64,000 nucleotides of DNA from Anaerolineae bacterium (GCA_034433995.1 DAOTZU010000169.1:2109-66108), one strand, 5' to 3'; numbered from the stretch's first letter, positions 27,008-46,429 are shown. Notes: a model not told the origin generated them from the letters alone. Made by a program: numbers and translations.

Positions 27008-27013
27008 GGTTGG

Positions 27014-29858: not shown

Positions 29859-30989
29859 TCAGGCGGAGCGCAGGAGCTGGCGCACGTGTTCCGGATTATT
29901 GGCCTTGGCCAAGATGTCTTCCAGGGTGACCATGCCGCGACGGTAAAGCTCGATCAGCGCCTGATCTAGGGTCCTCATCCCCAGCCGCTGGCTGGTCTCG
30001 ATGACGCCGGGGAGTTGATGGGTCTTGGCCTCGCGGATGAGATTGCGCACCGCCGGCGAGGCGACCATCACCTCCACCGCTACCACGCGGCCCTTCCCAT
30101 CGGCGGTGGGCAGCAGCGTCTGAGAGAGCACTCCCTCCAGGATCATGGAGAGTTGGATGCGCACCTGTTGTTGCTGGTGCGGCGGAAAGACGTCGATGAT
30201 GCGGTCCACCGTGTTGGCGGCGCCGGCGGTGTGCAGGGTGGAGAGCACCAGGTGGCCCGTCTCGGCGGCGGTGATGGCCGCGGCGATGGTCTCCAGGTCC
30301 CGCATCTCGCCCACCAGGATCACGTCGGGGTCCTGGCGCAAGGCGTGTTTGAGGGCGGAGGCGAAGCTGGGCGTGTCCTCGCCCAGCTCCCGCTGGGTGA
30401 TCATGCTCTGCTTGTCGGTAAAGACGTACTCGATGGGATCTTCGCAGGTGACGATGCGGCAGCGTTGTCGCTCGTTAAGATAGTCAATCATCGCCGCCAG
30501 GGTGGTGGATTTGCCGCTGCCGGTGGGCCCGGTGACGAGGATCAAGCCACGGGGCCGCATGATCAATTCTTTGCACACCGGGGGCAGCAACAAGTCGTCC
30601 AACGTGGGGATGATCATGCTCAGGCGGCGCATGACCATGGTGATGGTGCCCCGTTGTTTGGCCACATTGATGCGAAAGCGGGCCACCCCTTCCAGCTCAT
30701 AGGAGAGATCCAGCTCCAATTCCTGCTCAAAGCGCCGGCGCTGCTCCGGATTGGTCACCTGCTCGTAGAGGCGGGCCAGGTCGGCGGCGCTCAGGGGCTC
30801 GTACTGCGCCTGCACCTGCAGGTCGCCCCGGATGCGCAACACCGGCGGGCTCCCGGCCTTCAGGTGCAGATCTGAGGCGCCCAGGCGCGTCGTCAAGTGC
30901 AAAAGCTCGTCAATGTACACCTCCGCGCTGGGCGTGGGCCGGGCGAAGGTTGTGCGCTGCGTAGGTTGGCGCATGATGGGATCGGACAT
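29859..30989 (-). CDS. pilT: type IV pilus retraction ATPase PilT
   Basis: Walker A GPTGSGKST, PilT-family motifs; start 30989 with GGGGAA upstream. Confidence 0.85.
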   Translation of the reverse strand: MSDPIMRQPTQRTTFARPTPSAEVYIDELLHLTTRLGASDLHLKAGSPPVLRIRGDLQVQAQYEPLSAADLARLYEQVTNPEQRRRFEQELELDLSYELEGVARFRINVAKQRGTITMVMRRLSMIIPTLDDLLLPPVCKELIMRPRGLILVTGPTGSGKSTTLAAMIDYLNERQRCRIVTCEDPIEYVFTDKQSMITQRELGEDTPSFASALKHALRQDPDVILVGEMRDLETIAAAITAAETGHLVLSTLHTAGAANTVDRIIDVFPPHQQQQVRIQLSMILEGVLSQTLLPTADGKGRVVAVEVMVASPAVRNLIREAKTHQLPGVIETSQRLGMRTLDQALIELYRRGMVTLEDILAKANNPEHVRQLLRSA

Positions 30990-31145
30990 GTCCAAATTCC
31001 CCAGATCAGGATGTTGTGCTATCCCCTCGCCTGTAATGGGCCCTGAGGCCAAACAGTCGTTCTCCCCCGCGGTGCGACCAAATCCATGGGCGCGGGACCC
31101 TGCCCGATATATTTGCTCTAGTGAGCCCCTTGTGGGCCGTGGCCT

Positions 31146-31976
31146 CTAACCGGCGAAATACCAGAGCAACAGCCGGCTGCCGTAGAGCATGTACAGGAAG
31201 GTGGTGAGCACCAAAAAGGGCGCAAAAGGGATGGCCGTTTTGCGCCCGGCCAGCCGGGTGATGAGCAGCACGACCCCCACAACCCCTCCCAAAATGAAGG
31301 AGCTGAACACCGCCACCAGCGCCCCCGGAAAGGCGGTGATGAGCCCGGCAAAGGCCGCCAGCTTGACATCGCCGGCCCCCATCCCCTGGGGGGCGATGAG
31401 CCAGATCAGCCAAAAGATGAGAAAGGCGGCCAAGCCTCCCAGCAGCTGGCTCAAGGCCGTCCATTGCGCGATGGACAAACTCGCCATGCCACGGTTGCGT
31501 TGGATCAGCCAAAAGAGGCCCAAGTGGGCGAAGGAAGGCTCCGCCACCAGGGCCTGGATGGGGATGGCCAAAAGGGCCAAGACGATGGCCGGCAAGATGA
31601 CCACGTTCAACACCAATTTGTGCTCCAAGTCGATGACCAGGATGACCAGGAGGAAGCAGGTGTACACCGTGCTCAGCGCCAGTTCCACACTGGGGCCGAA
31701 AAACCAGGCCAGGAAGGCGAAAAGGAGGCCGGTAACCAGTTCCACCAGCAGCACGCGCAAGGGAATGCGCGCCCCGCAGGTGCGGCAACGTCCCCGGAGG
31801 ACGAGATAGCTGACCACAGGCACCAGGTCCCCCGCGGTGAGCTGCCGACCGCACTGGGGACAATGGGAGGGCGGGCGCAGCAGCGATTGCTGGGCGGGCA
31901 GCCGATCCATGACGACGTTCAGGAAGCTGCCCACGATGAGCCCCACCAAGCCATAAAGGGCGCTGAACCACACCAT
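31146..31976 (-). CDS. pilD: prepilin peptidase (A24 family)
   Basis: N-terminal CPxCG Zn-finger-like (HCPQCGRQL...CRTCG), polytopic membrane domain. Confidence 0.85.
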   Translation of the reverse strand: MVWFSALYGLVGLIVGSFLNVVMDRLPAQQSLLRPPSHCPQCGRQLTAGDLVPVVSYLVLRGRCRTCGARIPLRVLLVELVTGLLFAFLAWFFGPSVELALSTVYTCFLLVILVIDLEHKLVLNVVILPAIVLALLAIPIQALVAEPSFAHLGLFWLIQRNRGMASLSIAQWTALSQLLGGLAAFLIFWLIWLIAPQGMGAGDVKLAAFAGLITAFPGALVAVFSSFILGGVVGVVLLITRLAGRKTAIPFAPFLVLTTFLYMLYGSRLLLWYFAG

Positions 31977-31977: not shown

Positions 31978-32871
31978 CTACACCTTCTTCAGGGCCAGGC
32001 CGAAATTGGTCATGAACTCCATCTCGGGCAATTCCTCCGGGCAGGGAAATGGGGCGACGGCCCGTTCCACGGGGCGGTCAATGGTGGCTTTGAGATAGTC
32101 CCAGGCCTCGCGGGTATTCAGCGAGCGCCCCGCCAAATAGACGGACGTGCTGGGCTGCAACATAGCCTCGCGGTGGCTATCGTTGTAAAAGCGCACCGTC
32201 TGGGTCAGCTCCTCCAACAAGCGTTCGAGCTGGCCCAGGGCATCCAGGCCCTCCTTTTCAAAGGAGAAGGTGCGCATGATGGCCGGCAGATAATCTATGA
32301 CGATGACGATATCCAATAACCCATCCTCCAGGCAGACGATGATCGCCTCCGGTTGGCCTATGGCGCGGATGAGGGCCAACGGTTTGAGGTCCATCACAAA
32401 AGGCGGGATGCCCGCGGCCTGGAGCGCCCGCACCTGGGCCTCAATCATCTCCCTGGGCACCCCCACCACGTAAATGCGCTGTTGGTCGCCCACTCCGGGC
32501 ATGGATTGCCACGCGAGGTAGAGGCTCTCCAAGGAGACGGGCATCTCTTTGCGCGCCTCGCGGGAGATGGCCTCTTCCATCAACGAGGCCTGCAACTTGG
32601 GCAAGGTGAGCAGGCGCGGGATGGAGCGCATGGCGCTCAGGCTCGTGATCACCTGTTTGCGGGGCAGATTGTGGGCGGTAAAGAGGGCATCGAGGATCTT
32701 GCCCATCTCCACGGCGTTGGTGATCAACCCTTCCACCACCAGCCCCGGCGGCAGGTCCACGCTGAGCCAGCGGTCCACCTTGCCGTTGCGCAGGGTGAGC
32801 AGCCGCACATCGGTGGGTTCGATGGCCAGGGTGATCACATCACGGGTTTTGGGCTTGCTGAACAAGGCCAT
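31978..32871 (-). CDS. pilM: type IV pilus assembly protein PilM (actin-like ATPase fold)
   Basis: MALFSKPK...ITLAIEPTDVRLL N-terminus typical of PilM; GGAAGGA RBS. Confidence 0.8.
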   Translation of the reverse strand: MALFSKPKTRDVITLAIEPTDVRLLTLRNGKVDRWLSVDLPPGLVVEGLITNAVEMGKILDALFTAHNLPRKQVITSLSAMRSIPRLLTLPKLQASLMEEAISREARKEMPVSLESLYLAWQSMPGVGDQQRIYVVGVPREMIEAQVRALQAAGIPPFVMDLKPLALIRAIGQPEAIIVCLEDGLLDIVIVIDYLPAIMRTFSFEKEGLDALGQLERLLEELTQTVRFYNDSHREAMLQPSTSVYLAGRSLNTREAWDYLKATIDRPVERAVAPFPCPEELPEMEFMTNFGLALKKV

Positions 32872-32914
32872 GTGCGTTTCCTTCCCCAGGGCTAGGGGCA
32901 TCCCTGCGCCGATT

Positions 32915-34162
32915 TCAAGGGATGCGCAGCCTCATGCCCACGGTGATGCGCGAGCTGGTCAGACCGTTGGCCGCCATGAGGGCCGCCACGGTGGTGCCGA
33001 AGCGTTGGGCGATACTGAACAGGGTATCGCCGGCCTGCACGATATAGATCCTCCCGGGCAGGAGCGGCCCTCCGGGTAGGCCGCCCGGCCACAGCGGCGG
33101 GCTGCCCGCCCAGCCGGCCGGCGGGATGATCAAGCGCTGGTACACATAAAGGCTGTAGGTGGTCAAGCCGTTGGCCAACATGAGCAGGGCGACGGTGGTG
33201 TTGTAGCGTTGGGCGATGGTGTAAAGCGTCTCGCCGGGCATGACCACATGGATCAGGATGTCCGATTGCATGACGGTGGGGATGAACAGCGCCCGGTAAG
33301 CGCGGATGCTGGTGCCAGTCAACCCGTTGGCCGCCATGATGGCCCAGACTGTGGTATTGTACTGGCGGGCGATGGAGTAGAGGGTCTCGCCCGGCTGGAC
33401 GATGTGCACTAATGGCCCCGGTGCCGGGATGCCGCTGGCGGGGATCCAGATCACCGCGCCGGCGCGCAAGAAATAGGTCATCATCCCGTTGGCCTGCATG
33501 ATGGCTTGGACGGTGGTGTTGTAGCGCTTGGCCAGGCTATAGAGCGTATCGCCGGGTTGGACGGTGTAGGTGATGGGCTGGGAGAGGGTGCGTGGCGTGG
33601 GGGTGGGCGTGCTCGGTCCCGGTGTGATGGTGAGGGGGGGCGTGGAGGTGGCGGTGGGCGTGCCCGGCACCGGCGTGGTGCAATACCGCGCCACCAAATC
33701 AAGGCCCATGAGGGCCTCCTCGCCGGTGGGCCTGAGGGACCAAGCCTGGCGGAATTGCTCCAACGACTCGGTGCACTTGTTCTCCGTCAACAGCTTGTAG
33801 CCATAGTTGACATGGGCATAGTAGCGCTTGGCCTGGATGTCGTCATAGTTGGGGTCAATGGCGATGATCTGGCCGATGAGGTTCAACACTTGGGGCCAAT
33901 CCTGGGCGTTCCAGGCGGCGTCGAGCTGCTGCGCCAGGGCTTGCAGGCGCTGCTCGTTGGTGGGCGTGGCCGTGGCCACTTGCAAGGGGTGAAGGGGCAG
34001 TCCCTGGGGCTGCCCTCCCTCGGCTGCCGGCGGTTGGGCGCCGAGGCTCGCCCGCGCCGCCGGCGGCAGCCGGCCGGCCAACGTCCCTTGGGGCAAGAGG
34101 CCGCCGAGAAGGGCCAAGATCAGCAACGCCCTGCCCAAACGTGTCCATCGTCGCCTGCTCAT
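32915..34162 (-). CDS. secreted protein with TPR-like N-region and four LysM peptidoglycan-binding domains
   Basis: Signal peptide; four repeats of YTVQPGDTLYSIAxRYNTTV...ANGL. Confidence 0.75.
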   Translation of the reverse strand: MSRRRWTRLGRALLILALLGGLLPQGTLAGRLPPAARASLGAQPPAAEGGQPQGLPLHPLQVATATPTNEQRLQALAQQLDAAWNAQDWPQVLNLIGQIIAIDPNYDDIQAKRYYAHVNYGYKLLTENKCTESLEQFRQAWSLRPTGEEALMGLDLVARYCTTPVPGTPTATSTPPLTITPGPSTPTPTPRTLSQPITYTVQPGDTLYSLAKRYNTTVQAIMQANGMMTYFLRAGAVIWIPASGIPAPGPLVHIVQPGETLYSIARQYNTTVWAIMAANGLTGTSIRAYRALFIPTVMQSDILIHVVMPGETLYTIAQRYNTTVALLMLANGLTTYSLYVYQRLIIPPAGWAGSPPLWPGGLPGGPLLPGRIYIVQAGDTLFSIAQRFGTTVAALMAANGLTSSRITVGMRLRIP

Positions 34163-34174: not shown

Positions 34175-35317
34175 TTATCTTGGAATCACCAGCCGCTGAC
34201 CCACATATACGGTGGTGCTGCGCAGATCGTTGGCGCGCATGATGGCGCTGACCGTGGTATGGTAGCGGCTGGCGATGGACCACAAGGTATCTCCGGGCCG
34301 CACCACATGGATCAGCACCTCAGGCGTGGGGGTTTTGGTGGGCCCGGCGGTGGGGGAAGGTTTGGCCGTCTGCCCCGGCCGGGTGATGGTGGGCCGCGCC
34401 GCGGGGAGGGTCGGCGTCCCCTGAAGGCCGCGCAACAGCGTCAAGGCCTCCTGGCCGTTGGGCACCAAACGGAGGGCGGCCTCGAAGCGTTGTTGCGCCT
34501 CGGCGCGCCGGCCCTTGGCGGCCAGCTCGCGCCCCCAAGCGAGGTATACCTGATAGAGCTGATACGTCACCTCTTGGTGTTCCGGCTCCTCCTGCAAAAG
34601 GCGCTCCCCCTGGGCCGCCGCGGCCGGCCAATCCTGGGCCGCGATGGCGGCCTGGAAGGATTCCATCAGGCTACCTTGTTGTGCCGGCGTGGCGGTGGGG
34701 GCAGGACTGGGCGTCCCCTGGGCCGGCGCCGGTAGGGTGCCCCGCTCGATGGAATAGACCGCCAGGTCCACATTCCCCGTGAAGGGCCCATCGGGTTTGA
34801 CGATGAGGTTATCCAGCAAAAAGGTCTTGAACGGCCCATCGGCCAGGCGCGCCAAAAAGCGCAACAGCCCCGGCACCTCCCCCCGCGCCTCCACCAGAAA
34901 GCGCTGTACGTTATAGGCCTTCTCGGCCTCCTCCTCCGGCGTCTTGAGCAATGGCTCCAGCCGCGCCAGCCGCACGCCGAAGGTGCTGGCGTATTGGTAA
35001 TACTGGGCCATCTCATCGGCCACCTGTTGCCCGGTGGGCCAACCCGTGGTCAACTGCTGCAGTTGCTGTTGGGCCGCGCCCAGGCGCTGGCGCAGCGTCT
35101 CGGGGGCGGCGGCCTGGACGCGTTGAATCTGGGCGATGGCCTCTTGGGCGGTGTCGTACTCGCTCTGGGCCTCGCTCCGCCGCGAGATGGCACGCACCAG
35201 CGCGCTGAACACCACACCGGAGAGGACCAGTGCCACGATGAGGCTGAGGACGGCTCCCACCACCAGCGGGTTCTTGATCTTGAAGCGCCGAAAAAGATCC
35301 TTGACGTCGGTGTTCAT
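34175..35317 (-). CDS. PilO-like pilus assembly membrane protein with C-terminal TPR-like region and LysM domain
   Basis: Single TM (LVVGAVLSLIVALVL), coiled-coil, PilO-like core, C-terminal LysM (HVVRPGDTLWSIASRYHTTV); ATGA start/stop overlap with upstream giant gene. Confidence 0.5.
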   Translation of the reverse strand: MNTDVKDLFRRFKIKNPLVVGAVLSLIVALVLSGVVFSALVRAISRRSEAQSEYDTAQEAIAQIQRVQAAAPETLRQRLGAAQQQLQQLTTGWPTGQQVADEMAQYYQYASTFGVRLARLEPLLKTPEEEAEKAYNVQRFLVEARGEVPGLLRFLARLADGPFKTFLLDNLIVKPDGPFTGNVDLAVYSIERGTLPAPAQGTPSPAPTATPAQQGSLMESFQAAIAAQDWPAAAAQGERLLQEEPEHQEVTYQLYQVYLAWGRELAAKGRRAEAQQRFEAALRLVPNGQEALTLLRGLQGTPTLPAARPTITRPGQTAKPSPTAGPTKTPTPEVLIHVVRPGDTLWSIASRYHTTVSAIMRANDLRSTTVYVGQRLVIPR

Positions 35318-38300
35318 GGCGTCACCGTCTTGAGCCGCAGTTGCAGGGTGAATTGGATCAGTTGCGCGCCGGGGGCAGCGCCCAAGGGCGCCAATTGGGC
35401 CGCCGGCCGCTCCGGGGGCGCCGCCAGCCCCCACCAGCGCCGCGGGGCCGGCCAGGCTATCCCTTGCAGAAGGGGAGCGCCCTCTCTCCGCCAAGCGACC
35501 GCCTGGGGCTGCCCCAACGGGGCCCAGGCAGTCACTAGCCCCACCTCGTAGGCGCGCAGGTAATATTCCATGGTGGGGCCGAACAGTCCCTTGTTGTAGA
35601 TGGTGATGGTCACCTCGCCGTCGGCGGTCGCCTCAAAGATCACCGCCGAGTTCAGGTAACCCGTGCCGGGCAACGCATCGTCGCTTTGGCAGCCGCTGGG
35701 CTGGCAGTTGTGCACCGGCCCCGTCACCACCAACACGGTATCCACGCCGGGGGTCAGCGGATCGCAGACCAACTGGGTGGGCGAAAAGGGCGTGGTGACG
35801 GTGATGCTGGAACCGGGCTCCAGCCCGTTGCCGCAGGTGACCACCATGTAGCGCCGGCCGGCCTTGACCAAGAGGGTCACCTGGTCCACATCCAGCGCGG
35901 GGTGGAAGGTGTGGCGCTGGGATTCGTTGATGGAAAGATACCGTTTCACCGTGAGGTCCGGCTCGTAGGCGTCACCGCTTTCGGTGCCCAGATCGTCTAC
36001 CTGCAGGACATAGGTCTTGTCCGGCCCGTATTGTCCCTTGTTGGTGACCTGCACCGTCGCCTCAAGGTCGTCCGGGCCGTCGTTCTGCAGCTCCACGTAG
36101 GAGGAGAGATCGCCCGGTATCTTGTCGTCATTGCTGAGGTGGGTTGTGCCCATGTCCACCGTCAACATGGTATCCACGCCGGGGGCCAGATCTCGAGTGT
36201 AGATGCGATAGCGGCGTTCCGCCTTGGCGGTGAAGTAAACCCGATCCACGTCGCCGGGCGGATAAAAGCTCCGCGCCTGCCCCGCGCCGATGGCGATGGG
36301 CACCGGCGCAAGATCATCCACTTCGTAAGCATCGCCGGAGCCGACATCCGTCACCCGCAGGACGTAGGTGCGGTTGGGGCCAAAGAGGCCTTTGTTGGTC
36401 ACGGTGACAAAGGCGGGGGCGTCGGCGCCCGTTTGATTTTGAAACACAACCCTTGAGCTGAGATCCTGGGGCGAGCGATCGTCGCTGGTCCAGACCTGGC
36501 TGCCCAGGCGCACGGTGAGGACGCTATCGGCGCCCGTGGCCAGGGCGGTGGTCTCCACGGCGTAGGAATAGCCGGCTTTGGCGGTAAAGACCACCTGGTC
36601 CACATCGCCCGCGGGGCAGAAGGTGCGTGGCTGCTCCTCGTTCACCCCCATCACGCGGGCCACGGCATCGTCCGGTTCAAAGGCATCGCCGCAATCGAGG
36701 GTTGGAGTGGAGCTGGGGCCGGGCGTCGCCGTCGGTCCAGGGGTGAACAGCGGTGTGGGCGTAGCGGTGGTGCGGGTCAAATCGGGCGTAGGGGTGCGCA
36801 CCACACCCAAGAACTCGACCACCAGGGTGTAGGTCTTGTCCGGCCCATATTGGCCGTTGTTGGTCACCAAGACGGTGGCTTGGACGTCGCTAGCCCCGTC
36901 GTTCTGCAACTCCACATAAGATGAGAGATCGCCCGGCTGGCGGTCGTCGTTGCGGAGCTGGAGGGCGCCCATATTCACCGTGAGGACCGTATCCACGCCG
37001 GGGGCCAGGCCCTGGGTATAGATGCGGTAGCGGTGGTTGACCTTGGCCACAAAATAGACCCGATCCACATCGCCGGGCGGGTAAAAACTGCGCGCCTGGC
37101 CGATGCCAAAGGCGATGGGCACGGGGGAGAGGTCATCCACCTCGTAGGCATCGCCGGTGCCCGCGTCGGACACCTTGAACTTGTAGGTGCGATTTTGGCC
37201 AAAAAGGCCCTTGTTGGTGATGGTGATAAAGGCGGGAGCATCGCGGCCCGATTGGTTCTGGAAGATGATCTTGGAGCTGAGATCCTGGGGCGAGCGGTCG
37301 TCGCTGGTCCAGGATTGACCGCCCAAGAGCACGGTGACCACCGTATCCACACCGGGGGCCAGGTCATAGGTTTCCACGATGTAGGAATAGCCGGCCTTGG
37401 CGGTAAAGACGGCCTTGTCCACATCCCCGTTGGGACAAAAGTTGCGTCCCTGTTCCTGGTTCACCACCGCCAGGCGGCCCACGATATCATCCGGCTCGTA
37501 ACTATCGCCGCAAAAGACGGTGGGCGTGGGGCCGGGGGTAAGGGGCTGGCGGGTGAGATCGCGGGTGGGCGTGCCGGCCAGCTCGCGCAGCGTGAGCCAA
37601 TATTCCTTATCCACCCCATACTCGCCCCGGTTGGTGAGGGTGGCGATGGCCACACCGTCGCGGGAGGGGGTGAGGATCACCCGCGAGGCATAATCGCCGG
37701 GGGCGATGTCATCGTTCCGGAGGGTTTGCCCCTCCACCAGCACCTCCAACACCGTATCCACGCCCAAGGTGAGGCTGTACGTCTTGACCTCGTACACCCG
37801 CCCCGCCTTGACGGGGAAATAGACCCGGTCTACATCGCCCAAGGGGAAGAAGGTATGGCGCTGGCCCTCGTAAGGCGAGAGGGGCCGCGGGGTCTGGTCA
37901 TCCGGCTCGTAGGCATCACCCCCCGCCTCCAAGAGTTGCAGGGTGTAGGTTTTATCCACGCCATAGAGGCCCTTGTTGGTGATGGTGACCTGGGCCGTCC
38001 CATCGGCGTTGGCCTTGAAGAGGAGGCGCGAGGAGGGATCGCCGGAGGCGGCGTCATCGTTCTGCTGGGTGACGCCATCCACCTGCACCACGATGACCGT
38101 ATCCACCCCCAGGGCCAAGTTGGTGGTGCGCAATTCGTAGGCGTGCCCCGCCTTGACGGGGAAATAGACCCGGTCCACATCGCCGGCGGGGTAGAAAGAG
38201 CGGGCCTGGGCCTCGCCGATGGCGATGGGTTTGGGGGTTTGGTCGTCGCGCTCGTACGCGTCGCCGGTGGCCTCATAGACCGCCAGGGTGTACCACTTGT

Positions 38301-39294
38301 CTGGCCCGTATTGGCCGCGATTGCTGACCCGCACCCGCACCTGTTGGTCGGTGGCGCCGGGGATCTGGATCTCCACCAGGGAGGCCAAGCTGCCCGTCAC
38401 CGTCCCTGTGGGGCAGGCGCAGGCGAGCAAGGTCGCCTCGCCGGGGTGGCAATCGTCGTTAGTCAAGCCCGCACCGGCGACGGTGACCTCTAGAAAAGTA
38501 TCCACCCCGATGGCCTGGGGCAACGCCTGGATGCAATAGCGCCGGCCGGCCTTGCCCAAAAAGATCACCTGGTCCACATCGCCGGGGGGGTTAAAGTTGT
38601 GCCATTGCACCTCGCCCAGGACGATGGCGGTGGCTTGAAAATCATCGGTCTCGTAGGCATCGTAGGGGCTGGCGGTGGGCGTGGGGGTGACTTGGGCCGT
38701 GGGCGCCATGGTCAAGGTTAGAACCGCCGTACCGGTTACGGTGGCCGCGGCGGTGGGCGTGGGCAAGGTAAAGCTCTCCATGGATTGGACGATGACCTGT
38801 TCAAAGACGCCGGACCGATCCAGGGCGTTGGCGTAGCTGAGGACGTCGTCCTCGCTGAGGGCCAGGCCGCCGACGGTGAGGGTGTTGCGATCTTGGAAGA
38901 GGTCGGTCAGGCTGAGCCGCTGACGGTCATAGTTGAGCAACGCCTCGACGATGGCCGTCCAATCGCGCTGTTTGGCGGCGAGGGAGGGCTGCAGGGTCTG
39001 GATGACGGTGATGGCCCGCAGCGTGCGGCTGAGCTCGTCGGTCATCTGGATCATCTCTGGGGCGGGCGTGCGCATGGTTTTGAGGGCGCGCTGGGCCTGT
39101 TGGGCCTTGAGCTCCAGTTGCTCTGCCTGGGAGGTGTTGACGCTCAGCAGGACCAGCCCGAGCACCGTCAGCACGACCAGGCCGATGGATACGCCCCAGA
39201 GCAATTTGGCCATGGGCGGCACCACCCGCGGCCGGTATTGGGGCGGCAAGATATTCAGGTCAATTGGGCCAGGCGCTGGTGGTTTTGGCGGCAT
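35314..39294 (-). CDS. giant PilN-like protein: N-terminal PilN membrane/coiled-coil module fused to about eight pre-peptidase C-terminal (PPC)-like beta-sandwich repeats
   Basis: N-terminus LNILPPQYRP + TM + coiled-coil (PilN hallmark); then eight repeats of DAYEPDD...GDVDRVYF..KAG..Y......GVDTVL.V.....NDD...........T.TN.G.YG....Y.L.V. Confidence 0.65.
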   Translation of the reverse strand: MPPKPPAPGPIDLNILPPQYRPRVVPPMAKLLWGVSIGLVVLTVLGLVLLSVNTSQAEQLELKAQQAQRALKTMRTPAPEMIQMTDELSRTLRAITVIQTLQPSLAAKQRDWTAIVEALLNYDRQRLSLTDLFQDRNTLTVGGLALSEDDVLSYANALDRSGVFEQVIVQSMESFTLPTPTAAATVTGTAVLTLTMAPTAQVTPTPTASPYDAYETDDFQATAIVLGEVQWHNFNPPGDVDQVIFLGKAGRRYCIQALPQAIGVDTFLEVTVAGAGLTNDDCHPGEATLLACACPTGTVTGSLASLVEIQIPGATDQQVRVRVSNRGQYGPDKWYTLAVYEATGDAYERDDQTPKPIAIGEAQARSFYPAGDVDRVYFPVKAGHAYELRTTNLALGVDTVIVVQVDGVTQQNDDAASGDPSSRLLFKANADGTAQVTITNKGLYGVDKTYTLQLLEAGGDAYEPDDQTPRPLSPYEGQRHTFFPLGDVDRVYFPVKAGRVYEVKTYSLTLGVDTVLEVLVEGQTLRNDDIAPGDYASRVILTPSRDGVAIATLTNRGEYGVDKEYWLTLRELAGTPTRDLTRQPLTPGPTPTVFCGDSYEPDDIVGRLAVVNQEQGRNFCPNGDVDKAVFTAKAGYSYIVETYDLAPGVDTVVTVLLGGQSWTSDDRSPQDLSSKIIFQNQSGRDAPAFITITNKGLFGQNRTYKFKVSDAGTGDAYEVDDLSPVPIAFGIGQARSFYPPGDVDRVYFVAKVNHRYRIYTQGLAPGVDTVLTVNMGALQLRNDDRQPGDLSSYVELQNDGASDVQATVLVTNNGQYGPDKTYTLVVEFLGVVRTPTPDLTRTTATPTPLFTPGPTATPGPSSTPTLDCGDAFEPDDAVARVMGVNEEQPRTFCPAGDVDQVVFTAKAGYSYAVETTALATGADSVLTVRLGSQVWTSDDRSPQDLSSRVVFQNQTGADAPAFVTVTNKGLFGPNRTYVLRVTDVGSGDAYEVDDLAPVPIAIGAGQARSFYPPGDVDRVYFTAKAERRYRIYTRDLAPGVDTMLTVDMGTTHLSNDDKIPGDLSSYVELQNDGPDDLEATVQVTNKGQYGPDKTYVLQVDDLGTESGDAYEPDLTVKRYLSINESQRHTFHPALDVDQVTLLVKAGRRYMVVTCGNGLEPGSSITVTTPFSPTQLVCDPLTPGVDTVLVVTGPVHNCQPSGCQSDDALPGTGYLNSAVIFEATADGEVTITIYNKGLFGPTMEYYLRAYEVGLVTAWAPLGQPQAVAWRREGAPLLQGIAWPAPRRWWGLAAPPERPAAQLAPLGAAPGAQLIQFTLQLRLKTVTP
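36004..37506. repeat. intragenic tandem duplication (two ~0.7-0.8 kb units, period 819 bp) encoding a two-PPC-domain module
   Basis: Nearly identical 32-nt strings at 36462 and 37281; protein units DSYEPDD...TYTLVV and DAFEPDD...TYVLQV are co-linear. Confidence 0.6.
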
Positions 39295-39385
39295 AGGTTC
39301 CTTTGCGCAGCAAGGGCCAGAGCCGAGACTCTGGCCCCATTGTAACATATCTTGCTGTAGCTGTCATCCGTGGCAATGGGGGCGT

Positions 39386-40543
39386 TTAGCGGGTGATGAA
39401 CCAGGAGAGGAGCTGCATGGCCCCGTCCTCGCAAAGGCGCACCCGCGCCCGGGTGATGGTGCCGCCGGCGGTGGCTTCGATGTCGAAATCCTTGCAGCCC
39501 TCGTCCTCGCCGGCCATGGGGGGCGGCTGTATGGTGAGCCCCTCGCCGCAGAGATCCACCGAATCGCCCACAAAGGCGCCGGCCATGGCGCCGGAACCGC
39601 TCACGCGGATCATCCCGTTGGGGGCATAAACGTAACCCCGCACCATGGAGACGCCGCTCCCGCTGATCTGGATCACCGGCTGGGAGCAACGCGCCGAGCC
39701 GGTGTAGGCCGCCGGCGTGAAAAAGGCCAGATTATCCACATAGGGATGCAGGTCATAGCCGGAGCCGATGATTTCGATGGTGCCCAAGGCCACAAAGGTG
39801 GCCGTGCCGCTGAAGCTGTTGCCGTTGATCTTTAGATTGCCGGTGATATAGTACAGCCCGTCAAAGACGGTGCCGCTTTCGTTGACCGTATAGTTGCCCT
39901 CGATCCGGTGGTAGCGGCCCTCTTGTTGGGCAGCGTAGGCTGCCGTGCCCACAGCGTTGGGGTTGTTGTAATCATCGAGGGTGAACAACGGGGGCAAGAT
40001 CGTCACCGGCACCTGAATGGGGCTGGCCGGCGGGGGCGGGTTAAAGGTCACTTGGCCCTCGCCGCTGACCTCGGTGACGTACTCGACGATGCCGTTGATG
40101 ATGGTATCGGCCCCGCGGATGCGCATATCCCGGTTGGTGTGGACGTTGCCGTACAGCCGGTTATGGGCGCCCGTCCAATCCAACACGGAGGAACAGGTGG
40201 TGCTGTTGCCCCACAGAGTATAGTTGAAGGACCAAGAAACGGGCGCCACGCGCAGGGTGACCGGTAACCGGTTGACCGTGTCGGGCAGGGTCAGCTGCAC
40301 GCCTGAGGCGCCGCTCTGCTTCACCGTCTCGCGCCAGGCGGCATCGTGGCGCAGTCGCCAGAGGGCGTATTCCGCCCCCGCCTCGGAGGCGTACTGGGCG
40401 TGGAGCGCTCCCTCGTGGCGCAGGGTGGCCTTTTGCGCCGTGGCCACATGGCCCAAAAGGGGCACCAGGAGCAACGTCCCCACCATCAGGGCCACCAGCG
40501 CGTGGGGCAACGTGTTTCCCTGTTCCCTCGCGAGAGACGTCAT
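39386..40543 (-). CDS. pilus-associated protein, PilX/TadG-like N-terminus with GSG-repeat beta-rich C-domain (paralog 2)
   Basis: N-terminal TM, conserved YASEAGAEYALWRLRHDAAWRE block, repeated I(S/T)GSG motifs; ATGA overlap with upstream paralog. Confidence 0.5.
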   Translation of the reverse strand: MTSLAREQGNTLPHALVALMVGTLLLVPLLGHVATAQKATLRHEGALHAQYASEAGAEYALWRLRHDAAWRETVKQSGASGVQLTLPDTVNRLPVTLRVAPVSWSFNYTLWGNSTTCSSVLDWTGAHNRLYGNVHTNRDMRIRGADTIINGIVEYVTEVSGEGQVTFNPPPPASPIQVPVTILPPLFTLDDYNNPNAVGTAAYAAQQEGRYHRIEGNYTVNESGTVFDGLYYITGNLKINGNSFSGTATFVALGTIEIIGSGYDLHPYVDNLAFFTPAAYTGSARCSQPVIQISGSGVSMVRGYVYAPNGMIRVSGSGAMAGAFVGDSVDLCGEGLTIQPPPMAGEDEGCKDFDIEATAGGTITRARVRLCEDGAMQLLSWFITR

Positions 40544-41742
40544 GATGAGCCCACCTGCCAGGAGAGCACCTGCCAATCGCCGTCGCCGCACCCTCGCATC
40601 CGCACTGTCGTGACCGTCGAGCCGGAGGTGGACCGGATGTCATAGACGCCACAGACGATGCTGCTGCCGCCGCTGCCCGGCAGTTCCACCTCGGCCAGGT
40701 TGATGGTGGCCCCCGAACCGTTGATATCGATCTCGTTGCCCAAGAAGGCGCCGGTGATCACCCCGCCGGAGCCGGTGAGAGAGATCTTGCCATTGGGGGC
40801 AAAGACCGTCCCGCCGGTGTTGCCCGAACCGCTGATGCTGACCACGTTGGTGCTGGCCGCGCGGGTGCTGAAAAAGCTCAGGCCGGGCACGTAGGGCGTG
40901 AAATCCAGCCCCGAGCCGCTGACATCGATGGTGGACAAGGAGACCACGGTCACATTGTATCCCCGCAGGCCCGAGCCGGAAAAGTTGACTTTGCCGGTGC
41001 AATAGTGCAGACCCTCCGGGATCACCGTGCCGGAGCCGGTGATGTTCCATGTGCCATTATGGACGTAATATTTCCCCTCGGCCTGGGCTCGGGCTGCCCA
41101 GCTGCCGGGTTGGTTGGGATCGTTGAACTCGTTGATATCCCAGGTGATGGGAAAAGGCTGGACGGTGGTCTGCACGGCCGGGCCCGGCACGATGCGGTTG
41201 CCCGAACCCAAAATGGTCAGGTTGCGCACATATTCCGCTGTGCCGTAGATGGTGTGGCCCGAACCGTTGATCTTGAGATCGCGGTTGCTGTGCACGCCGC
41301 CGTTGACGGTGTGCCCCGATCCGCCGATGACCAAGCCGTTGGTGGCGGTGCTGCTCTGGGCCCAGAGGGCCCATTCCAGGCATTCTGGCTCGCCGCCCCC
41401 GCCGCCAGCCTGGGTCTCGGTCTCGACGCACACCACCTCCACGGTGGGGGTATCTCCGTTGGGGGCGCTGGGCAGGGTCAAGGAGGCCACGGTGCCCGGC
41501 TGGTCCAGCAGAGTTTGCCGCCAAGCCGCGTCGTGGACCAGCTTCCAGAGGGCGAATTCCACGCCGGCATCGCTGGAATATTGCCGCTGCAGGGTGGTCT
41601 GGGTTGCCGCCGTCGTCTTCAGGCTGGTGCTCAGATGGGCCAGGAGCGGCCCGATCAAAATGATCCCCGTGGCTAAGGCGAGCAAGGCCAGGGGCAAGGA
41701 CTCGCCGCGTTCCTCTTGCCGGAATGTTGCTCTGTGCTTCAT
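40540..41742 (-). CDS. pilus-associated protein, PilX/TadG-like (paralog 1)
   Basis: Collinear similarity to 39386..40543 product (YSSDAGVEFALWKLVHDAAWRQ; GSG repeats); GAGGGAG RBS. Confidence 0.5.
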   Translation of the reverse strand: MKHRATFRQEERGESLPLALLALATGIILIGPLLAHLSTSLKTTAATQTTLQRQYSSDAGVEFALWKLVHDAAWRQTLLDQPGTVASLTLPSAPNGDTPTVEVVCVETETQAGGGGGEPECLEWALWAQSSTATNGLVIGGSGHTVNGGVHSNRDLKINGSGHTIYGTAEYVRNLTILGSGNRIVPGPAVQTTVQPFPITWDINEFNDPNQPGSWAARAQAEGKYYVHNGTWNITGSGTVIPEGLHYCTGKVNFSGSGLRGYNVTVVSLSTIDVSGSGLDFTPYVPGLSFFSTRAASTNVVSISGSGNTGGTVFAPNGKISLTGSGGVITGAFLGNEIDINGSGATINLAEVELPGSGGSSIVCGVYDIRSTSGSTVTTVRMRGCGDGDWQVLSWQVGSS

Positions 41743-41755: not shown

Positions 41756-42274
41756 TCACTGGGAAAGGCGCCGGGTGATGGTCAGCGTCATGCTGCGGCT
41801 GCCCCGGCGGGCCAGGGCGCTGGTCAAGGTGATGCGCACGGTGGTGCTGATCTGGGTCCCTTGCAGCGGCTCGATCTGCCAGGAGCTGATGTGCCGGGCC
41901 ACGGTGACCGAGCTGCTCCCGCCCGCGCCCGAGGTGGTGCGCACCAAATTGCCCCCCACCAGGCTGTAGGTGACGGTGGTGACCTGCGCCGATCCCGTTT
42001 GTCCAAAGGGGTAGGAGGGGATGTTCAGAGTCAATGTGGTGCCGTCAAAAGTGCCCTCCGAGGCGCCCACCACATCCCGGTTGAGGAGCACGCCGGCGGT
42101 CTGGAGCTGTTGGCTCAGCGTCAGCGAGTCCTGCTGCAGGCGGGTGAGGTTGTTAAATTGATACAGCATCACCACCAACGCCCCCAGGAGCAGCGCCGTG
42201 ATGGCGGTGGAGATCATGGTCTCCACCAGGGTGAATCCGTTTTGGCCCGTGCCGAGGAGCAAGCGCTTTTTCAT
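41756..42274 (-). CDS. prepilin-type N-terminal cleavage/methylation domain protein (minor pilin-like)
   Basis: GFTLVETMISTAITALLLGALVVML class-III signal peptide. Confidence 0.7.
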   Translation of the reverse strand: MKKRLLLGTGQNGFTLVETMISTAITALLLGALVVMLYQFNNLTRLQQDSLTLSQQLQTAGVLLNRDVVGASEGTFDGTTLTLNIPSYPFGQTGSAQVTTVTYSLVGGNLVRTTSGAGGSSSVTVARHISSWQIEPLQGTQISTTVRITLTSALARRGSRSMTLTITRRLSQ

Positions 42275-42675
42275 GGCCGATCCACCTTGTAATCCTCTAA
42301 GGCAAAGAGCAACTTGCCGTTTTCATAGACCTTGACCAGGATCTTTTGCATCCCGTTATCCGTGGCCGGCGGCGAACCGGAGAAGGTCTGGGTGGCCGAG
42401 AGCCAGTAGGTCACCTCCACCGAATGGGTGTAGAGGCTGGAGGGTTGGATGGTGGGGTACGGCTGGGCCGTCGGGTTGGCCCGATACTCGGCCTGTTTGA
42501 TCAGCTCCATCTGCTGCCGGGCATAGTTTTCGGCGCTGATGCGCTCTTCCACCAAAGCCACGCTCCCGCTGGAGGTGGAAAGCCCGCTGAGCATGATGAG
42601 GAGCGCCGCGCCGACGATGGCCAGCGTCACCAAGTCGCCCACCAGAGAACCGCCCCGTTGATCTTGTAACATCAT
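42271..42675 (-). CDS. pilin/pseudopilin-like protein with hydrophobic N-terminal helix
   Basis: ORF 42271..42795; start MMLQDQRGGSLVGDLVTLAIVGAALLIM at 42675 with AAGGTGG RBS. Confidence 0.6.
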   Translation of the reverse strand: MMLQDQRGGSLVGDLVTLAIVGAALLIMLSGLSTSSGSVALVEERISAENYARQQMELIKQAEYRANPTAQPYPTIQPSSLYTHSVEVTYWLSATQTFSGSPPATDNGMQKILVKVYENGKLLFALEDYKVDRP

Positions 42676-42802
42676 GGGAACCACCTTCTTGCTTATAAAA
42701 CCACCCGCAAAAACGCCGGTTTTTGTCGTCCAGCGCCCGCGAGGGGCTGGGCACCCGGCGGACCGCAAGACCTGTGCCCGCCGGATGCGCCCCAAAAGCG
42801 GG

Positions 42803-44005
42803 TTACTTGATCGAACCCATGAGCGAGTACATGGGCATGATCACCGCCACAGCCACAAAGCCCACCACCGCGCCGATAAAGAGGGTGAGGGCCGGCTCCA
42901 CCGCCCCGGCCATGGCCGCCACGGCCCGGTCCACCTCCTCTTCGTAAAAGATGGCCAGGGTCTCCATGTTGGAATCCAGGGCGCCGGTCTCTTCGCCCAC
43001 CCGCACCATCTGCACCAGCATCCCCGGAAAGATCTTTTGCTGGGCTAAAGGATCGGCCAGGCCGCGGCCCTGCAAAAGGTCGCGGCGCACGCCCTCCAAG
43101 GCGGCCCTGATGACCCGGTTGCTCTGGGTGCGGATGATCATCTCGATGATCTCCGGCAGGGCCAACCCCGCCCGCAGCAGGGCGGACATGGAGCGACACA
43201 TCCGCGCCACCGCCCCTTGGATCGTCACCCGTTTGATGAGGGGGATCTTGAGCAAGGCCCGGTCAAAGAACCAATGCCCTGCCTCCGAGCGGAAGAAAAG
43301 CACCCCCGCGCTGCCCACCAGCACCAGCGTGCCCAGGAGATGGAACTTGTAGGTGGAGGCGAAATCGGTGATGGCGATGAGGATGCGGGTGGGCAGGGGT
43401 AACTCCGCGCCGAAGGAGGTGAACAGGCCCATCAGGGGCGGCAGGGCCACGGTGAGCATCAAAAAGACCACGCCCACCGCCAACAAAAGCACAAAGGAGG
43501 GATAGGCCATGGCGCTGCGGATCTTGCGCACCAGGGCCTCTTCTTTCTCCATGTAAATGGCCAGTTGCCGCAGCACCATCTCCAAATTACCGGTGCGCTC
43601 GCCCACCTCGATCAACCGAGCATAGAGGTTGGAAAAGATCTTTTTGTGTTTCGAGATGGCCTCGGAGAGGAAACGGCCCTGCTGCAGGTCGAGGATGATC
43701 TCGCCCAACACCTGGCGCAGACGCTTGTTGCTGGTCTGTTCCTGCAACAGTTGGATGGCGCGAACGATGGGGATGCCCGATTCGATCAGTGTGGCCAATT
43801 GCCGGGAAAAGATGATCAGATCCCGGGTGCGCACCTTGGGGCTGAACAAGGAGACCCCGCCGTTTGTCTCCTGGGTCTCCTTGAGAGAGATGATGGTATA
43901 GTTCAGCTTCCACAGGAGCTCCTCGGCCACTTTCTCCGAGGCCGCCTCGATGCGGCCTTGGATCATTTCTCCTTTAGGCGTATACGCGATGTAATGGTAT
44001 GCCAT
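42803..44005 (-). CDS. pilC: type IV pilus inner-membrane platform protein PilC (GspF family)
   Basis: Two GspF-type repeats; start MAYHYIAYTPKGE at 44005. Confidence 0.85.
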   Translation of the reverse strand: MAYHYIAYTPKGEMIQGRIEAASEKVAEELLWKLNYTIISLKETQETNGGVSLFSPKVRTRDLIIFSRQLATLIESGIPIVRAIQLLQEQTSNKRLRQVLGEIILDLQQGRFLSEAISKHKKIFSNLYARLIEVGERTGNLEMVLRQLAIYMEKEEALVRKIRSAMAYPSFVLLLAVGVVFLMLTVALPPLMGLFTSFGAELPLPTRILIAITDFASTYKFHLLGTLVLVGSAGVLFFRSEAGHWFFDRALLKIPLIKRVTIQGAVARMCRSMSALLRAGLALPEIIEMIIRTQSNRVIRAALEGVRRDLLQGRGLADPLAQQKIFPGMLVQMVRVGEETGALDSNMETLAIFYEEEVDRAVAAMAGAVEPALTLFIGAVVGFVAVAVIMPMYSLMGSIK

Positions 44006-44019
44006 GGTCACCCACTCCC

Positions 44020-45930: not shown

Positions 45931-46429
45931 GGTCTCATCTCGATGGACATTAAAGGCTATACCGGCCATGGGCCTTGCCGGCTAACGAAATCTAACAGTT
46001 TCTGCTCTTATCATACCGGATCGTGGGCGGCGGGGCATAAAAAGTACATTAATCCAGCGCTTTTGGCGCGGGGAGGGGGCTAAATTTGGCCTAAAGGAGA
46101 ACACACCCGCTTCGCCCTCGGCGCTCGGAGGTATCCCCAGAAAGATGCCGGGGCTGCGCCTGGCGGGTGGCGCGCCACCGCCGTGGCGCGCTCGCGGATT
46201 TACGCTTCATTTACCCCACTTTGACCCACGCTTTACGGATGCCTATAGGGGCTGTGCTATGATGTGGCCAGAATAAGCTCAGGATAGACGACGATAGCAT
46301 CGCAGCAGCAGTGAGGCCAGCAGGCAAGGAGGTAAGGAGGCAAGATCAGAAGACGAGGTCAGAGTTGCGGCACATGGCAATGCGTGTGGCATCGGGCATT
46401 ATTCTTAGCACTAAACGGAGGTAACGAAA

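What the first reader, a model, noticed from the sequence alone, without database searches (positions are those of the whole stretch)
35314..39294. Giant PilN-like protein carrying about eight tandem PPC-type beta-sandwich domains
Canonical PilN is about 200 aa (short cytoplasmic tail, one TM, coiled coil, small periplasmic domain). Here a PilN-type N-terminus (LNILPPQYRP, TM, coiled coil) continues in frame for about 1130 more residues. These form eight repeats with the pre-peptidase C-terminal / collagenase-like signature (D.YE.DD...GDVDRVYF..KAG..Y....GVDTV..V....NDD........T.TN.G.YG...Y.L). The gene sits in PilN position (ATGA-coupled to a PilO-like gene) in a pilus operon that has no secretin or PilP. 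A PilN with a long extracytoplasmic stalk of Ig-like domains could span a thick wall or S-layer of a monoderm cell. I am not aware of this architecture being described.
Basis: partly seen in the sequence, partly recalled or inferred. Interest (0 to 1): 0.8.

Follow-up and report, generated by a model that had tools for sequence, protein, structure and literature searches.

The report
Giant PilN with inserted PPC domains
This is a real gene for a type IV pilus assembly protein (PilN) from an uncultured Anaerolineae bacterium that carries eight collagenase-type beta-sandwich domains inserted into a loop of its outer domain, an apparently undescribed design that may help the pilus machine cope with a cell envelope lacking an outer-membrane pore.

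Summary

The main correction concerns topology. The repeats are not a C-terminal stalk. The last ~20 residues (LIQFTLQLRLK) are the missing final beta-strand of the PilN fold, so the array is an insertion in the beta3-beta4 loop and is tethered at both ends.

Three lines of evidence support this:
- A splice test with nine controls against the Pfam PilN model.
- Natural relatives with 0 to 10 repeats that all end in the same strand.

The architecture and its gene cassette (PilN-PPC, PilO, multi-LysM protein, PilM, PilD, PilT) recur in many Anaerolineae metagenome-assembled genomes (MAGs). Databases label these proteins only as "PilN domain-containing". I found no paper describing them.

The function is inferred, not shown: a cell-wall-embedded cage or anchor around the pilus path. 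I rate this a new variant of a known kind, of moderate to high interest.

The parts
35314..39294 (-). Whole giant PilN gene (1326 codons plus stop)
   Evidence: The start at 39294 is supported by homologue N-termini.
39214..39294 (-). Cytoplasmic N-terminal tail, residues 1-27, with the IDLNILPPQYRPR motif (INLLP-type PilM-binding motif of PilN)
   Evidence: Read directly from the sequence. Conserved across the family. The assignment as a PilM-binding motif comes from the literature, not from a test here.
39139..39213 (-). Single transmembrane helix, about residues 28-52
   Evidence: Hydrophobic stretch LLWGVSIGLVVLTVLGLVLLSV. The equivalent region is helical in the homologue model.
38971..39138 (-). 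Coiled-coil or helical stalk, about residues 53-108
   Evidence: The homologue model has helices 26-73 and 78-106. The family profile aligns this region to M. xanthus PilN 3jc8_Na.
38773..38970 (-). PilN core, first part (alpha1-beta1-beta2-alpha2-beta3), residues 109-174
38674..38772 (-). Pro/Thr-rich linker that opens the insertion, residues 175-207
   Evidence: Composition. Aligns with the variable PT-rich loop of zero-repeat relatives.
38275..38673 (-). PPC-like repeat R1 (residues 208-340), with a Cys-rich insert
   Evidence: The cysteines are invariant in close homologues.
37930..38274 (-). PPC-like repeat R2 (residues 341-455)
37570..37929 (-). PPC-like repeat R3 (residues 456-575)
37519..37569 (-). 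Pro/Thr-rich linker 1 (residues 576-592)
37165..37518 (-). PPC-like repeat R4 (residues 593-710), 69% identical to R6
36805..37164 (-). PPC-like repeat R5 (residues 711-830), 76% identical to R7
36700..36804 (-). Pro/Thr-rich linker 2 (residues 831-865)
36346..36699 (-). PPC-like repeat R6 (residues 866-983)
35986..36345 (-). PPC-like repeat R7 (residues 984-1103)
35527..35985 (-). PPC-like repeat R8 (residues 1104-1256), with a Cys-containing insert
35380..35526 (-). Ala/Pro/Trp-rich return tail (residues 1257-1305), predicted disordered
   Evidence: Composition. The equivalent tail in the homologue model has pLDDT below 50.
35317..35379 (-). C-terminal segment (residues 1306-1326) holding LIQFTLQLRLK, the last beta-strand (beta4) of the PilN domain
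   Evidence: Splice test: 37.0 bits with profile coverage to position 77/78, against 28.6-30.9 bits for nine controls. Conserved in the family and in zero-repeat relatives. Confident strand in the homologue model.
34175..35317 (-). PilO-like protein (TM, coiled coil, alpha/beta domain) extended by a TPR-like region and a C-terminal LysM domain. ATGA-coupled to the PilN gene.
   Evidence: Four of 12 orthologues hit Pfam PilO. hhalign to the PilN family gives 78% probability.
32915..34162 (-). Secreted protein with four LysM domains; a conserved member of the cassette
31978..32901 (-). PilM-like protein
   Evidence: Pfam PilM_2 at 1.2e-11; TIGR01175 at 59 bits, below its cut-off.
31146..31976 (-). 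Prepilin peptidase PilD
29859..31052 (-). PilT-like ATPase; the 397-aa ORF may be somewhat longer than the true gene
   Evidence: Same position as in homologue loci. The PilT name rests on size and position.
39386..41742 (-). Two ~400-aa DUF7305 proteins with hydrophobic, pseudopilin-like N-termini (candidate minor-pilin or tip proteins)
41756..42795 (-). Prepilin with N_methyl motif (41756-42274) and a small upstream ORF (42271-42795) with no Pfam match; the pilin-like reading of the latter rests only on its position and a hydrophobic segment
42803..45969 (-). PilC platform protein (42803-44023) and PilB extension ATPase with N-terminal receiver and MshEN domains (44020-45969)

Best explanation
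The gene encodes the PilN subunit of a type IVa pilus machine of an uncultured Anaerolineae (Chloroflexota) bacterium.

Its cytoplasmic IDLNILP motif, single transmembrane helix, coiled coil and small ferredoxin-like outer domain are those of an ordinary PilN. An array of eight PPC / collagen-binding-domain-type beta-sandwich domains has been inserted into the loop between the third and the last beta-strand of that outer domain. The array is arranged in three blocks (R1-R3, R4-R5, R6-R8) joined by Pro/Thr-rich linkers. The chain therefore leaves the membrane-proximal PilN core, makes a long excursion, and returns through a disordered tail to supply the final core strand.

Inferred mechanism: PilN and PilO form a multi-copy ring around the pilus base, so the looped arrays would form a basket of beta-sandwich domains projecting into the wall zone. 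The conserved acidic residues may bind Ca2+ and stiffen the domains. The basket would work together with the LysM domain on the PilO-like partner and with the conserved multi-LysM protein, which bind peptidoglycan. Its role would be to anchor the machine in the wall, or to keep a passage open for the pilus, in an envelope with no secretin, PilP or TsaP.

Shown: gene integrity, PilN identity, PPC fold, insertion topology, conservation and synteny.
Inferred: extracytoplasmic basket geometry, Ca2+ binding, and the wall-anchoring or conduit role.

My confidence is about 0.9 for the architecture and topology and about 0.35-0.4 for the functional reading. The single figure given is a blend of the two.
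For: Gene and PilN identity
- Uninterrupted ORF.
- Pfam PilN above its gathering score.
- A family profile has M. xanthus PilN 3jc8_Na as its best PDB hit, E 1e-4.

PPC fold
- Pfam PPC at 29.1 bits.
- AF2 model of window R2-R3 has mean pLDDT 88.6.

Insertion topology
- Splicing the last 20 residues after beta3 raises the PilN score from 28.1 to 37.0 bits and extends the match from profile position 61 to 77 of 78. A reversed tail, four shuffled tails and four other strand-containing segments taken from the PPC repeats give 28.6-30.9 bits and stop at positions 61-65.
- Among 172 complete relatives the repeat count runs 0, 1, 2 ... 8, 10, and they end in the same [VI]xFx[LIV]xLxLK strand.
- The ~200-aa zero-repeat relatives align end to end with the window protein once its array is removed.
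- In the AF2 model of the full-length homologue P0035, the C-terminal strand 876-884 has pLDDT 77-90 after a tail with pLDDT below 50.

Extracytoplasmic location
- Conserved cysteines in R1, R4/R6 and R8.
- PT-rich linkers.

System context
- The cassette PilN-PPC, PilO-like, multi-LysM protein, PilM, PilD, PilT is conserved in at least 12 Anaerolineae MAG loci.
- No secretin or PilP in the window.

Literature
- Enlarged PilO in monoderm Firmicutes has been proposed to help cross or anchor to peptidoglycan (PMC6916266).
- PilO-LysM fusions in Chloroflexota have been proposed to bridge peptidoglycan (PMC13319060, PMC12488501).
- Collagen-binding domains are a PPC subclass that Ca2+ stabilises and whose linker it orders (PMC4356367).
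Against: - No experimental data exist for any member, and all homologues come from MAGs.
- Close relatives work with zero repeats, so the array is accessory rather than intrinsic to PilN function.
- Repeat number varies widely. That fits tuning to the envelope, but it fits an adhesive or binding role equally well.
- Inter-domain geometry is unreliable (pTM 0.38).
- Ca2+ binding rests on conserved acidic positions only. The repeat profile has no sequence-level hit to any solved structure.
- Only 3 of 8 repeats hit Pfam PPC individually, and weakly.
- The absence of a secretin is shown for 64 kb, not for the genome.
- PilM matches only the N-terminal half of the PilM models.
Confidence: 0.55

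Rival explanations
1. Surface-display adhesin. PilN serves mainly as a membrane anchor, and the PPC array binds an external polymer, mineral, sheath component or neighbouring cell. In this reading it contributes to attachment or filament cohesion rather than to pilus passage.
For: - PPC / collagen-binding domains are ligand-binding modules in secreted enzymes (PMC4356367).
- The same repeat type occurs in Anaerolineae M4 and C1A peptidases and in pentapeptide-repeat membrane proteins. It is therefore a shared surface module.
- Repeat number varies from 0 to 10, which is typical of adhesins.
Against: - The array is tethered at both ends close to the membrane, a poor geometry for reaching beyond the envelope.
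- In the common six-repeat form the repeats are position-specifically conserved at about 50% identity across many species, including Cys-bearing R1 and R8. Fast-evolving adhesin repeats do not usually look like this.
- The gene is always embedded in the pilus cassette next to LysM proteins.
Confidence: 0.2
2. Free C-terminal stalk. The repeats form a linear rod extending away from PilN with a distal free end, and the terminal strand has some other role, for example docking on a distal partner.
For: The linear gene order looks like a C-terminal extension. I could not view model coordinates to see the strand pairing directly.
Against: - The splice test with nine controls.
- Zero-repeat relatives that end in the same strand straight after a short loop.
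Confidence: 0.05
3. Strand-swapped ring. The C-terminal strand completes the PilN domain of the neighbouring subunit rather than its own, so that the long loops link the PilN ring like a chain.
For: A long, flexible 50-180-residue tail precedes the strand in all members. PilN/PilO-type domains are known to form dimers and rings. Nothing in my data distinguishes cis from trans completion.
Against: The zero-repeat relatives have short loops compatible with ordinary cis folding. There is no direct evidence for swapping.
Confidence: 0.1
4. Artefact: two genes merged by a sequencing or assembly error, or a decaying pseudogene.
For: None beyond the unusual length.
Against: - The frame is open for 1326 codons.
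- A 100%-identical protein was recovered independently (P0001).
- More than 50 homologue clusters and 39 genome loci share the architecture, including the matching C-terminal strand.
Confidence: 0.02

Closest known systems
Canonical PilN of type IVa pili (Pfam PF05137; T. thermophilus PilN PDB 4bhq; M. xanthus PilN in 3jc8)
   Same: N-terminal INLLP-type motif, one transmembrane helix, coiled coil, ferredoxin-like outer domain, and a gene next to pilO in an operon with pilM, pilB, pilC, pilD and pilT.
   Different: About 1100 extra residues (eight PPC domains plus linkers) inserted before the last strand. pilM lies downstream of pilN and pilO rather than upstream. No secretin or PilP partner is present in the locus.
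Short (~200 aa) PilN relatives found with the window N-terminus (for example P0083, P0082, P0136)
   Same: Same PilN core and the same terminal strand motif VEFVILVELK..P. They already have a variable Pro/Thr-rich beta3-beta4 loop.
   Different: No PPC domains in the loop. Many lack the IDLNILP motif at the N-terminus.
Collagen-binding domains of clostridial collagenases ColG and ColH (PPC superfamily; PDB 1nqd, 3jqw, 5iku)
   Different: Only 12-17% identity and no sequence-level PDB hit. Not attached to a peptidase. Extra conserved GVDT and NDD motifs. Embedded within another domain rather than terminal.
Enlarged PilO of monoderm Firmicutes (S. sanguinis, 56.6 kDa) and PilO-LysM of Litorilinea aerophila
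   Same: An alignment-subcomplex protein enlarged on the outer side in bacteria without a secretin, proposed to deal with the peptidoglycan layer (PMC6916266, PMC13319060, PMC12488501). The window's PilO-like protein also carries LysM.
   Different: Here PilN is the greatly enlarged partner, the added module is a PPC array, and it is an internal insertion rather than a terminal extension.
PilP-PilQ-TsaP outer parts of diderm type IVa pilus machines
   Same: A possible functional analogy: a multi-copy structure around the pilus path, linked to PilN/PilO and to peptidoglycan.
   Different: No homology. No outer-membrane pore. The analogy is a hypothesis only.

Membership tests
PilN (type IVa pilus alignment/assembly subcomplex) | Match to the PilN domain model (PF05137) above the curated threshold | tested here: met
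   25.0 bits against a cut-off of 22.8 for the native protein. 37.0 bits over profile positions 13-77 of 78 once the insertion is removed in silico.
PilN (type IVa pilus alignment/assembly subcomplex) | Bitopic topology: short cytoplasmic N-terminus with an INLLP-like motif, one TM helix, then a coiled coil | tested here: met
   IDLNILP at residues 11-17, a hydrophobic helix at about 28-52, and long helices in the homologue model. The motif is conserved in most family members.
PilN (type IVa pilus alignment/assembly subcomplex) | Ferredoxin-like periplasmic fold similar to solved PilN | tested here: met
PilN (type IVa pilus alignment/assembly subcomplex) | Gene context with pilM, pilO and the core pilus genes | tested here: met
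   The cassette is conserved in at least 12 related loci. The gene order differs from the classical pilMNOPQ.
PilN (type IVa pilus alignment/assembly subcomplex) | Physical binding to PilM and PilO, and requirement for piliation | not testable with these tools
   Needs genetics or biochemistry.
PPC / bacterial pre-peptidase C-terminal domain (PF04151), collagen-binding-domain subclass | Match to the PPC model | tested here: met
   29.1 bits against a cut-off of 25.9 for the whole protein. Individually only 3 of 8 repeats match, best E 5.4e-4, below the gathering score.
PPC / bacterial pre-peptidase C-terminal domain (PF04151), collagen-binding-domain subclass | Beta-sandwich fold of ColG s3b / ColH s3 | tested here: met
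PPC / bacterial pre-peptidase C-terminal domain (PF04151), collagen-binding-domain subclass | Ca2+ site formed by acidic residues of the N-terminal linker and an early strand | tested here: inconclusive
   D5, E8, D10, D32 and D34 (R2 numbering) are invariant in all eight repeats and nearly so across the family. I could not check the geometry in coordinates.
PPC / bacterial pre-peptidase C-terminal domain (PF04151), collagen-binding-domain subclass | Position at the C-terminus of a secreted peptidase, often removed on maturation | tested here: not met
   No peptidase domain in the protein. The domains sit inside a PilN loop.
PilO (for the downstream gene, 34175-35317) | Match to the PilO model PF04350 and PilN-like bitopic topology | tested here: inconclusive
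   The window copy has no PilO hit at E <= 1. Four of 12 orthologues hit PilO, best E 9.1e-5. hhalign to the PilN family gives 78% probability. A profile search of PDB sequences found no PilO. The TM-plus-coiled-coil topology is visible in the sequence.
Diderm-type T4aP machine with a secretin | PilQ secretin and PilP encoded with the system | tested here: not met
   No secretin or PilP among the operon genes and the other large ORFs scanned in the 64-kb window, nor in homologue loci. The whole genome was not available.

The most novel reading that the evidence does not exclude
The looped PPC arrays of the multi-copy PilN ring form a Ca2+-stiffened, peptidoglycan-embedded basket. In this reading the basket is the functional substitute for the PilP-secretin-TsaP module in secretin-less Chloroflexota, and the repeat number (0 to 10) acts as an evolutionary ruler matched to the thickness of the multilayered envelope. 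It might be closed into a chain by exchange of the terminal strand between neighbouring subunits. That would be a new structural answer to how type IV pili cross a thick wall without an outer-membrane pore.
Probability: 0.25. Interest if true: 0.85.

Novelty: new variant of a known kind. Interest (0 to 1): 0.6.

Why it matters
How type IV pili pass through and are anchored in the thick walls of bacteria without an outer membrane is an acknowledged open question (PMC6916266). Chloroflexota envelopes are unusual and multilayered (PMC7332563, PMC13319060).

This family gives a concrete, conserved candidate for the missing outer part of the machine. It also comes with a natural series of 0 to 10 inserted domains that could be compared with envelope architecture.

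It is also a clear example of a large domain array inserted into a loop of a small fold. Annotation pipelines reduce such proteins to "PilN domain-containing protein". The terminal strand is easy to miss, and missing it would mislead construct design for structural work.

Tried and rejected
I folded a full-length natural homologue instead. Coordinates are not exposed, so I could not view the strand pairing directly.
- The search for related loci with the broad alignments A1 and A2 failed for lack of conserved stretches. It worked with the 15 closest sequences.
- A profile of the eight repeats against PDB sequences found nothing at E <= 1.
- A PilO-like profile against PDB sequences gave only coiled-coil noise such as JetA.
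- A single-sequence PDB search with the spliced PilN gave nothing useful.
- Tandem Repeats Finder found no DNA-level array.
- A look-up of the contig encoding the 100%-identical protein P0001 returned no record, so the sample of origin is unknown.
- I considered the strand AVLTLTMAP (residues about 190-198) as the possible fourth PilN strand and rejected it. The Pfam alignment does not extend into it (protein 1), and it lies in the non-conserved PT-rich loop.
- I considered a gene fusion or assembly artefact and rejected it on conservation.
- Loci L027-L032 from the genome scan are unrelated pentapeptide-repeat membrane proteins that share only one PPC-like module.
Full report
**1. The observation**

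The window (about 64% G+C) has one long open frame on the minus strand at 35314-39348.
- The ATG at 39294 follows AAAGGAAC. It gives an N-terminus (MPPKPPAPGPIDLNILPPQYRPR) that matches the starts of many homologues. I therefore take 39294 as the start, which makes the protein 1326 aa.
- The stop overlaps the ATG of the next gene as ATGA.
- Pfam finds PilN (25.0 bits, cut-off 22.8, residues 126-173) and PPC (29.1 bits, cut-off 25.9).
- A motif scan and a MAFFT alignment define exactly eight repeats, starting at residues 208, 341, 456, 593, 711, 866, 984 and 1104. Twenty-two alignment columns are invariant in all eight.
- Pairwise identity between repeats is 33-76%. R4/R6 (69%) and R5/R7 (76%) show that a [linker-R4-R5] unit was duplicated, at 75% DNA identity.
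- Tandem Repeats Finder sees nothing at the DNA level, so the copies are old.

**2. The locus**

All of these genes are on the minus strand:

| Coordinates | Product |
|---|---|
| 44020-45969 | PilB with receiver and MshEN domains |
| 42803-44023 | PilC |
| 42271-42795 | small ORF with no Pfam match (pilin-like only by position and a hydrophobic segment) |
| 41756-42274 | prepilin |
| 39386-41742 | two DUF7305 proteins with pseudopilin-like N-termini |
| 35314-39294 | the giant PilN |
| 34175-35317 | 380-aa TM, coiled-coil, alpha/beta protein with a TPR-like region and a LysM domain |
| 32915-34162 | 4xLysM protein |
| 31978-32901 | PilM-like protein |
| 31146-31976 | PilD |
| 29859-31052 | PilT-like ATPase |

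- None of the operon genes or the other large ORFs I scanned in the window is a secretin or PilP.
- The downstream 380-aa protein does not hit Pfam PilO itself. Four of 12 orthologues do (best E 9.1e-5), and a profile comparison with the PilN family gives 78% probability. "PilO-like" is reasonable but rests on orthologues.

**3. The repeats are PPC / collagen-binding-domain folds**

- AlphaFold2 on window residues 341-575 (R2-R3), with 22 aligned homologous segments, gave a mean pLDDT of 88.6.
- At the sequence level the relationship is distant. Identity is 12-17%, a repeat profile finds no PDB sequence, and only 3 of 8 repeats hit Pfam PPC on their own.
- Collagen-binding domains are a subclass of the PPC superfamily. 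Ca2+ stabilises them and orders their N-terminal linker (PMC4356367).
- The invariant acidic residues of the repeats (D.YE.DD, GDVD) plausibly correspond to that Ca2+ site. This is inference, because I could not check the geometry.

**4. The key correction: an insertion, not an extension**

After R8 comes a 49-residue Ala/Pro/Trp-rich tail and then LIQFTLQLRLKTVTP. Four lines of evidence identify this as the last strand of the PilN fold.

(a) Conservation. Almost every full-length homologue ends in the same motif, [VI]xFx[LIV]xLxLK...P, whatever its repeat number.

(b) Splice test.
- The N-terminal 207 residues alone score 28.1 bits against Pfam PilN, and the match stops at profile position 61 of 78.
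- Joining the last 20 residues directly after beta3 gives 37.0 bits, and the match runs to position 77.
- Nine controls give 28.6-30.9 bits and stop at positions 61-65. The controls were a reversed tail, four shuffled tails, and four other strand-containing segments taken from the PPC repeats.

(c) Natural series.
- A full HMMER search with residues 1-185 against 1.84 billion representatives found 339 relatives.
- Among 172 proteins with both ends present, the repeat counts are 0 (60 proteins), 1 (21), 2 (25), 3 (11), 4 (13), 5 (11), 6 (25), 7 (4), 8 (1, the window) and 10 (1).
- The ~200-aa zero-repeat members end in the same strand after a short variable Pro/Thr-rich loop. They align end to end with the window protein once its array is removed.

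(d) Structure prediction.
- The AF2 model of the full-length homologue P0035 (885 aa, mean pLDDT 81.7) shows helix 111-119, strands 126-134 and 137-144, helix 147-159 and strand 163-173. Five confident beta-sandwiches follow, then a tail with pLDDT below 50, and then a confident strand at 876-884.
- It also matches the four-stranded GspL, EpsL and PulL periplasmic domains, with 70-77 of 75-82 residues aligned at about 2 Å. That is more than the roughly 63-residue, three-stranded contiguous core can supply, which fits the terminal strand completing the fold.
- I could not view coordinates, so this last step is indirect.

**5. Distribution**

- A word-indexed search found about 55 clusters of 750-1580 aa with this architecture.
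- A scan of one genome per species found full-length members only in Anaerolineae / Anaerolineales / Chloroflexota MAGs. The best is 53% identical, and no cultured strain appeared among the hits.
- The cassette PilN-PPC, PilO-like, multi-LysM protein, PilM, PilD, PilT is conserved in at least 12 of these loci. The PilB-PilC-pilin-DUF7305 block lies upstream where the contig allows.
- The common form has six repeats that are position-specifically conserved, including cysteines in R1, R4 and the last repeat. This points to an extracytoplasmic, disulfide-bonded, selected structure.
- The same repeat type also occurs in Anaerolineae M4 and C1A peptidases and in pentapeptide-repeat membrane proteins. 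The module was probably recruited from a shared pool of surface domains.

**6. Mechanism**

Shown:
- A PilN whose outer domain carries a loop of eight PPC domains, tethered at both ends.
- A partner PilO-like protein with LysM.
- A conserved multi-LysM protein.
- No secretin or PilP in the locus.

Inferred:
- In the PilN/PilO ring, the loops would form a basket of beta-sandwich domains in the wall zone.
- With the LysM modules, the basket would anchor the machine to peptidoglycan or keep a channel open for the pilus.

Because the array returns to its origin, its reach is at most about half its contour length. The "long stalk" picture needs revising.

The literature offers related ideas: enlarged PilO in monoderm Firmicutes (PMC6916266), and PilO-LysM in Litorilinea as a bridge across peptidoglycan (PMC13319060, PMC12488501). 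Neither source mentions PPC-bearing PilN. Searches for PilN together with "pre-peptidase C-terminal" or "PPC domain" returned no paper.

Rivals:
- An adhesin or ligand-binding display role. This is plausible, given the variable repeat number and the ligand-binding ancestry of the module.
- Strand exchange between neighbouring subunits. This is untested.
- A free stalk. This is disfavoured.
- An artefact. This is excluded by conservation.

**7. Verdict**

- The finding is real, and the core identification is right. The topology needed correcting, and the function remains a hypothesis.
- It is a new variant of a known kind: PilN with a nested PPC array. Databases hold many unremarked copies of it.
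- My confidence is about 0.9 for the architecture and topology and about 0.35-0.4 for the wall-cage/anchor function.
- Interest is 0.6. A type IV pilus specialist would find it notable and testable, but it is a domain-architecture variant from uncultured organisms with no functional data.

Noticed in passing
window 44020-45969 (-): The PilB extension ATPase carries an N-terminal response-regulator receiver domain plus an MshEN domain. The same architecture is seen in homologue loci L002/L003. Histidine kinase and response-regulator genes sit just beyond the operon (25493-29717, + strand). Pilus extension may be under phosphorelay control.
   Followed up: partly
window 34175-35317 (-) and loci L004-L018: The PilO-like partner is modular across species. 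The core alone is about 205-215 aa, a TPR-like extension brings it to about 295-330 aa, and a further C-terminal LysM domain brings it to about 320-390 aa (window, L004, L008, L010). PilO-LysM fusions were recently noted in Litorilinea (PMC13319060).
   Followed up: partly
window 46831-48891 (-): A TMEM260-like / PMT_2 protein O-mannosyltransferase homologue lies about 860 bp upstream of pilB, with one small unassigned ORF (46494-47138) between them. It could glycosylate the Pro/Thr-rich linkers of the giant PilN or the pilins. It is not seen at this position in homologue loci L002/L003.
   Followed up: no
window 39386-41742 (-): Two adjacent ~400-aa DUF7305 proteins have hydrophobic, pseudopilin-like N-termini and many GSG repeats, suggesting a beta-helix. 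The listed ORFs overlap by 52 nt, so the true start of the second is probably later. A larger 885-aa protein occupies the first position in L002/L003.
   Followed up: no
L027, L028, L029, L031, L032 (ORFs around position 9001): These are large membrane proteins with N-terminal pentapeptide repeats, several TM helices, one PPC-like module of the same subtype, PT-rich linkers and FN3 domains. They are unrelated to PilN and show that the module is widely reused in Anaerolineae surface proteins.
   Followed up: partly
L022 2892-9476: A 2194-aa reading frame runs through a block of N (masked or gap sequence). It joins a PilN-PPC protein to what looks like a C1A peptidase with more PPC modules. This is almost certainly an artefact of the gap, not a real fusion.
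   Followed up: no
L025 2812-4932 and P0051/P0056: Some family members carry an additional Ig-like module (precomputed Pfam PF19190 in P0051 and P0056) after the PPC repeats and before the terminal strand. The loop therefore accepts other domain types as well.
   Followed up: no
window 50032-51657 (-): A DNA methylase (N6_N4_Mtase) is fused to an Mrr-like restriction endonuclease domain, a likely type IIG-style restriction-modification enzyme. An endonuclease/exonuclease/phosphatase family gene lies next to it (48990-50003).
   Followed up: no
window 51791-54061 (-): A single 756-aa ORF combines a partial CofD-like region (profile positions 108-274 of 290) with a complete phosphoglucomutase/phosphomannomutase. 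It may be a fusion, or an over-extended ORF in a high-GC frame.
   Followed up: no
window 1779-4301 (+): An 840-aa ORF combines a PadR-like regulator domain with a GH57 branching-enzyme catalytic domain and C-terminal domain. The PadR part may be a separate upstream gene read in the same frame.
   Followed up: no
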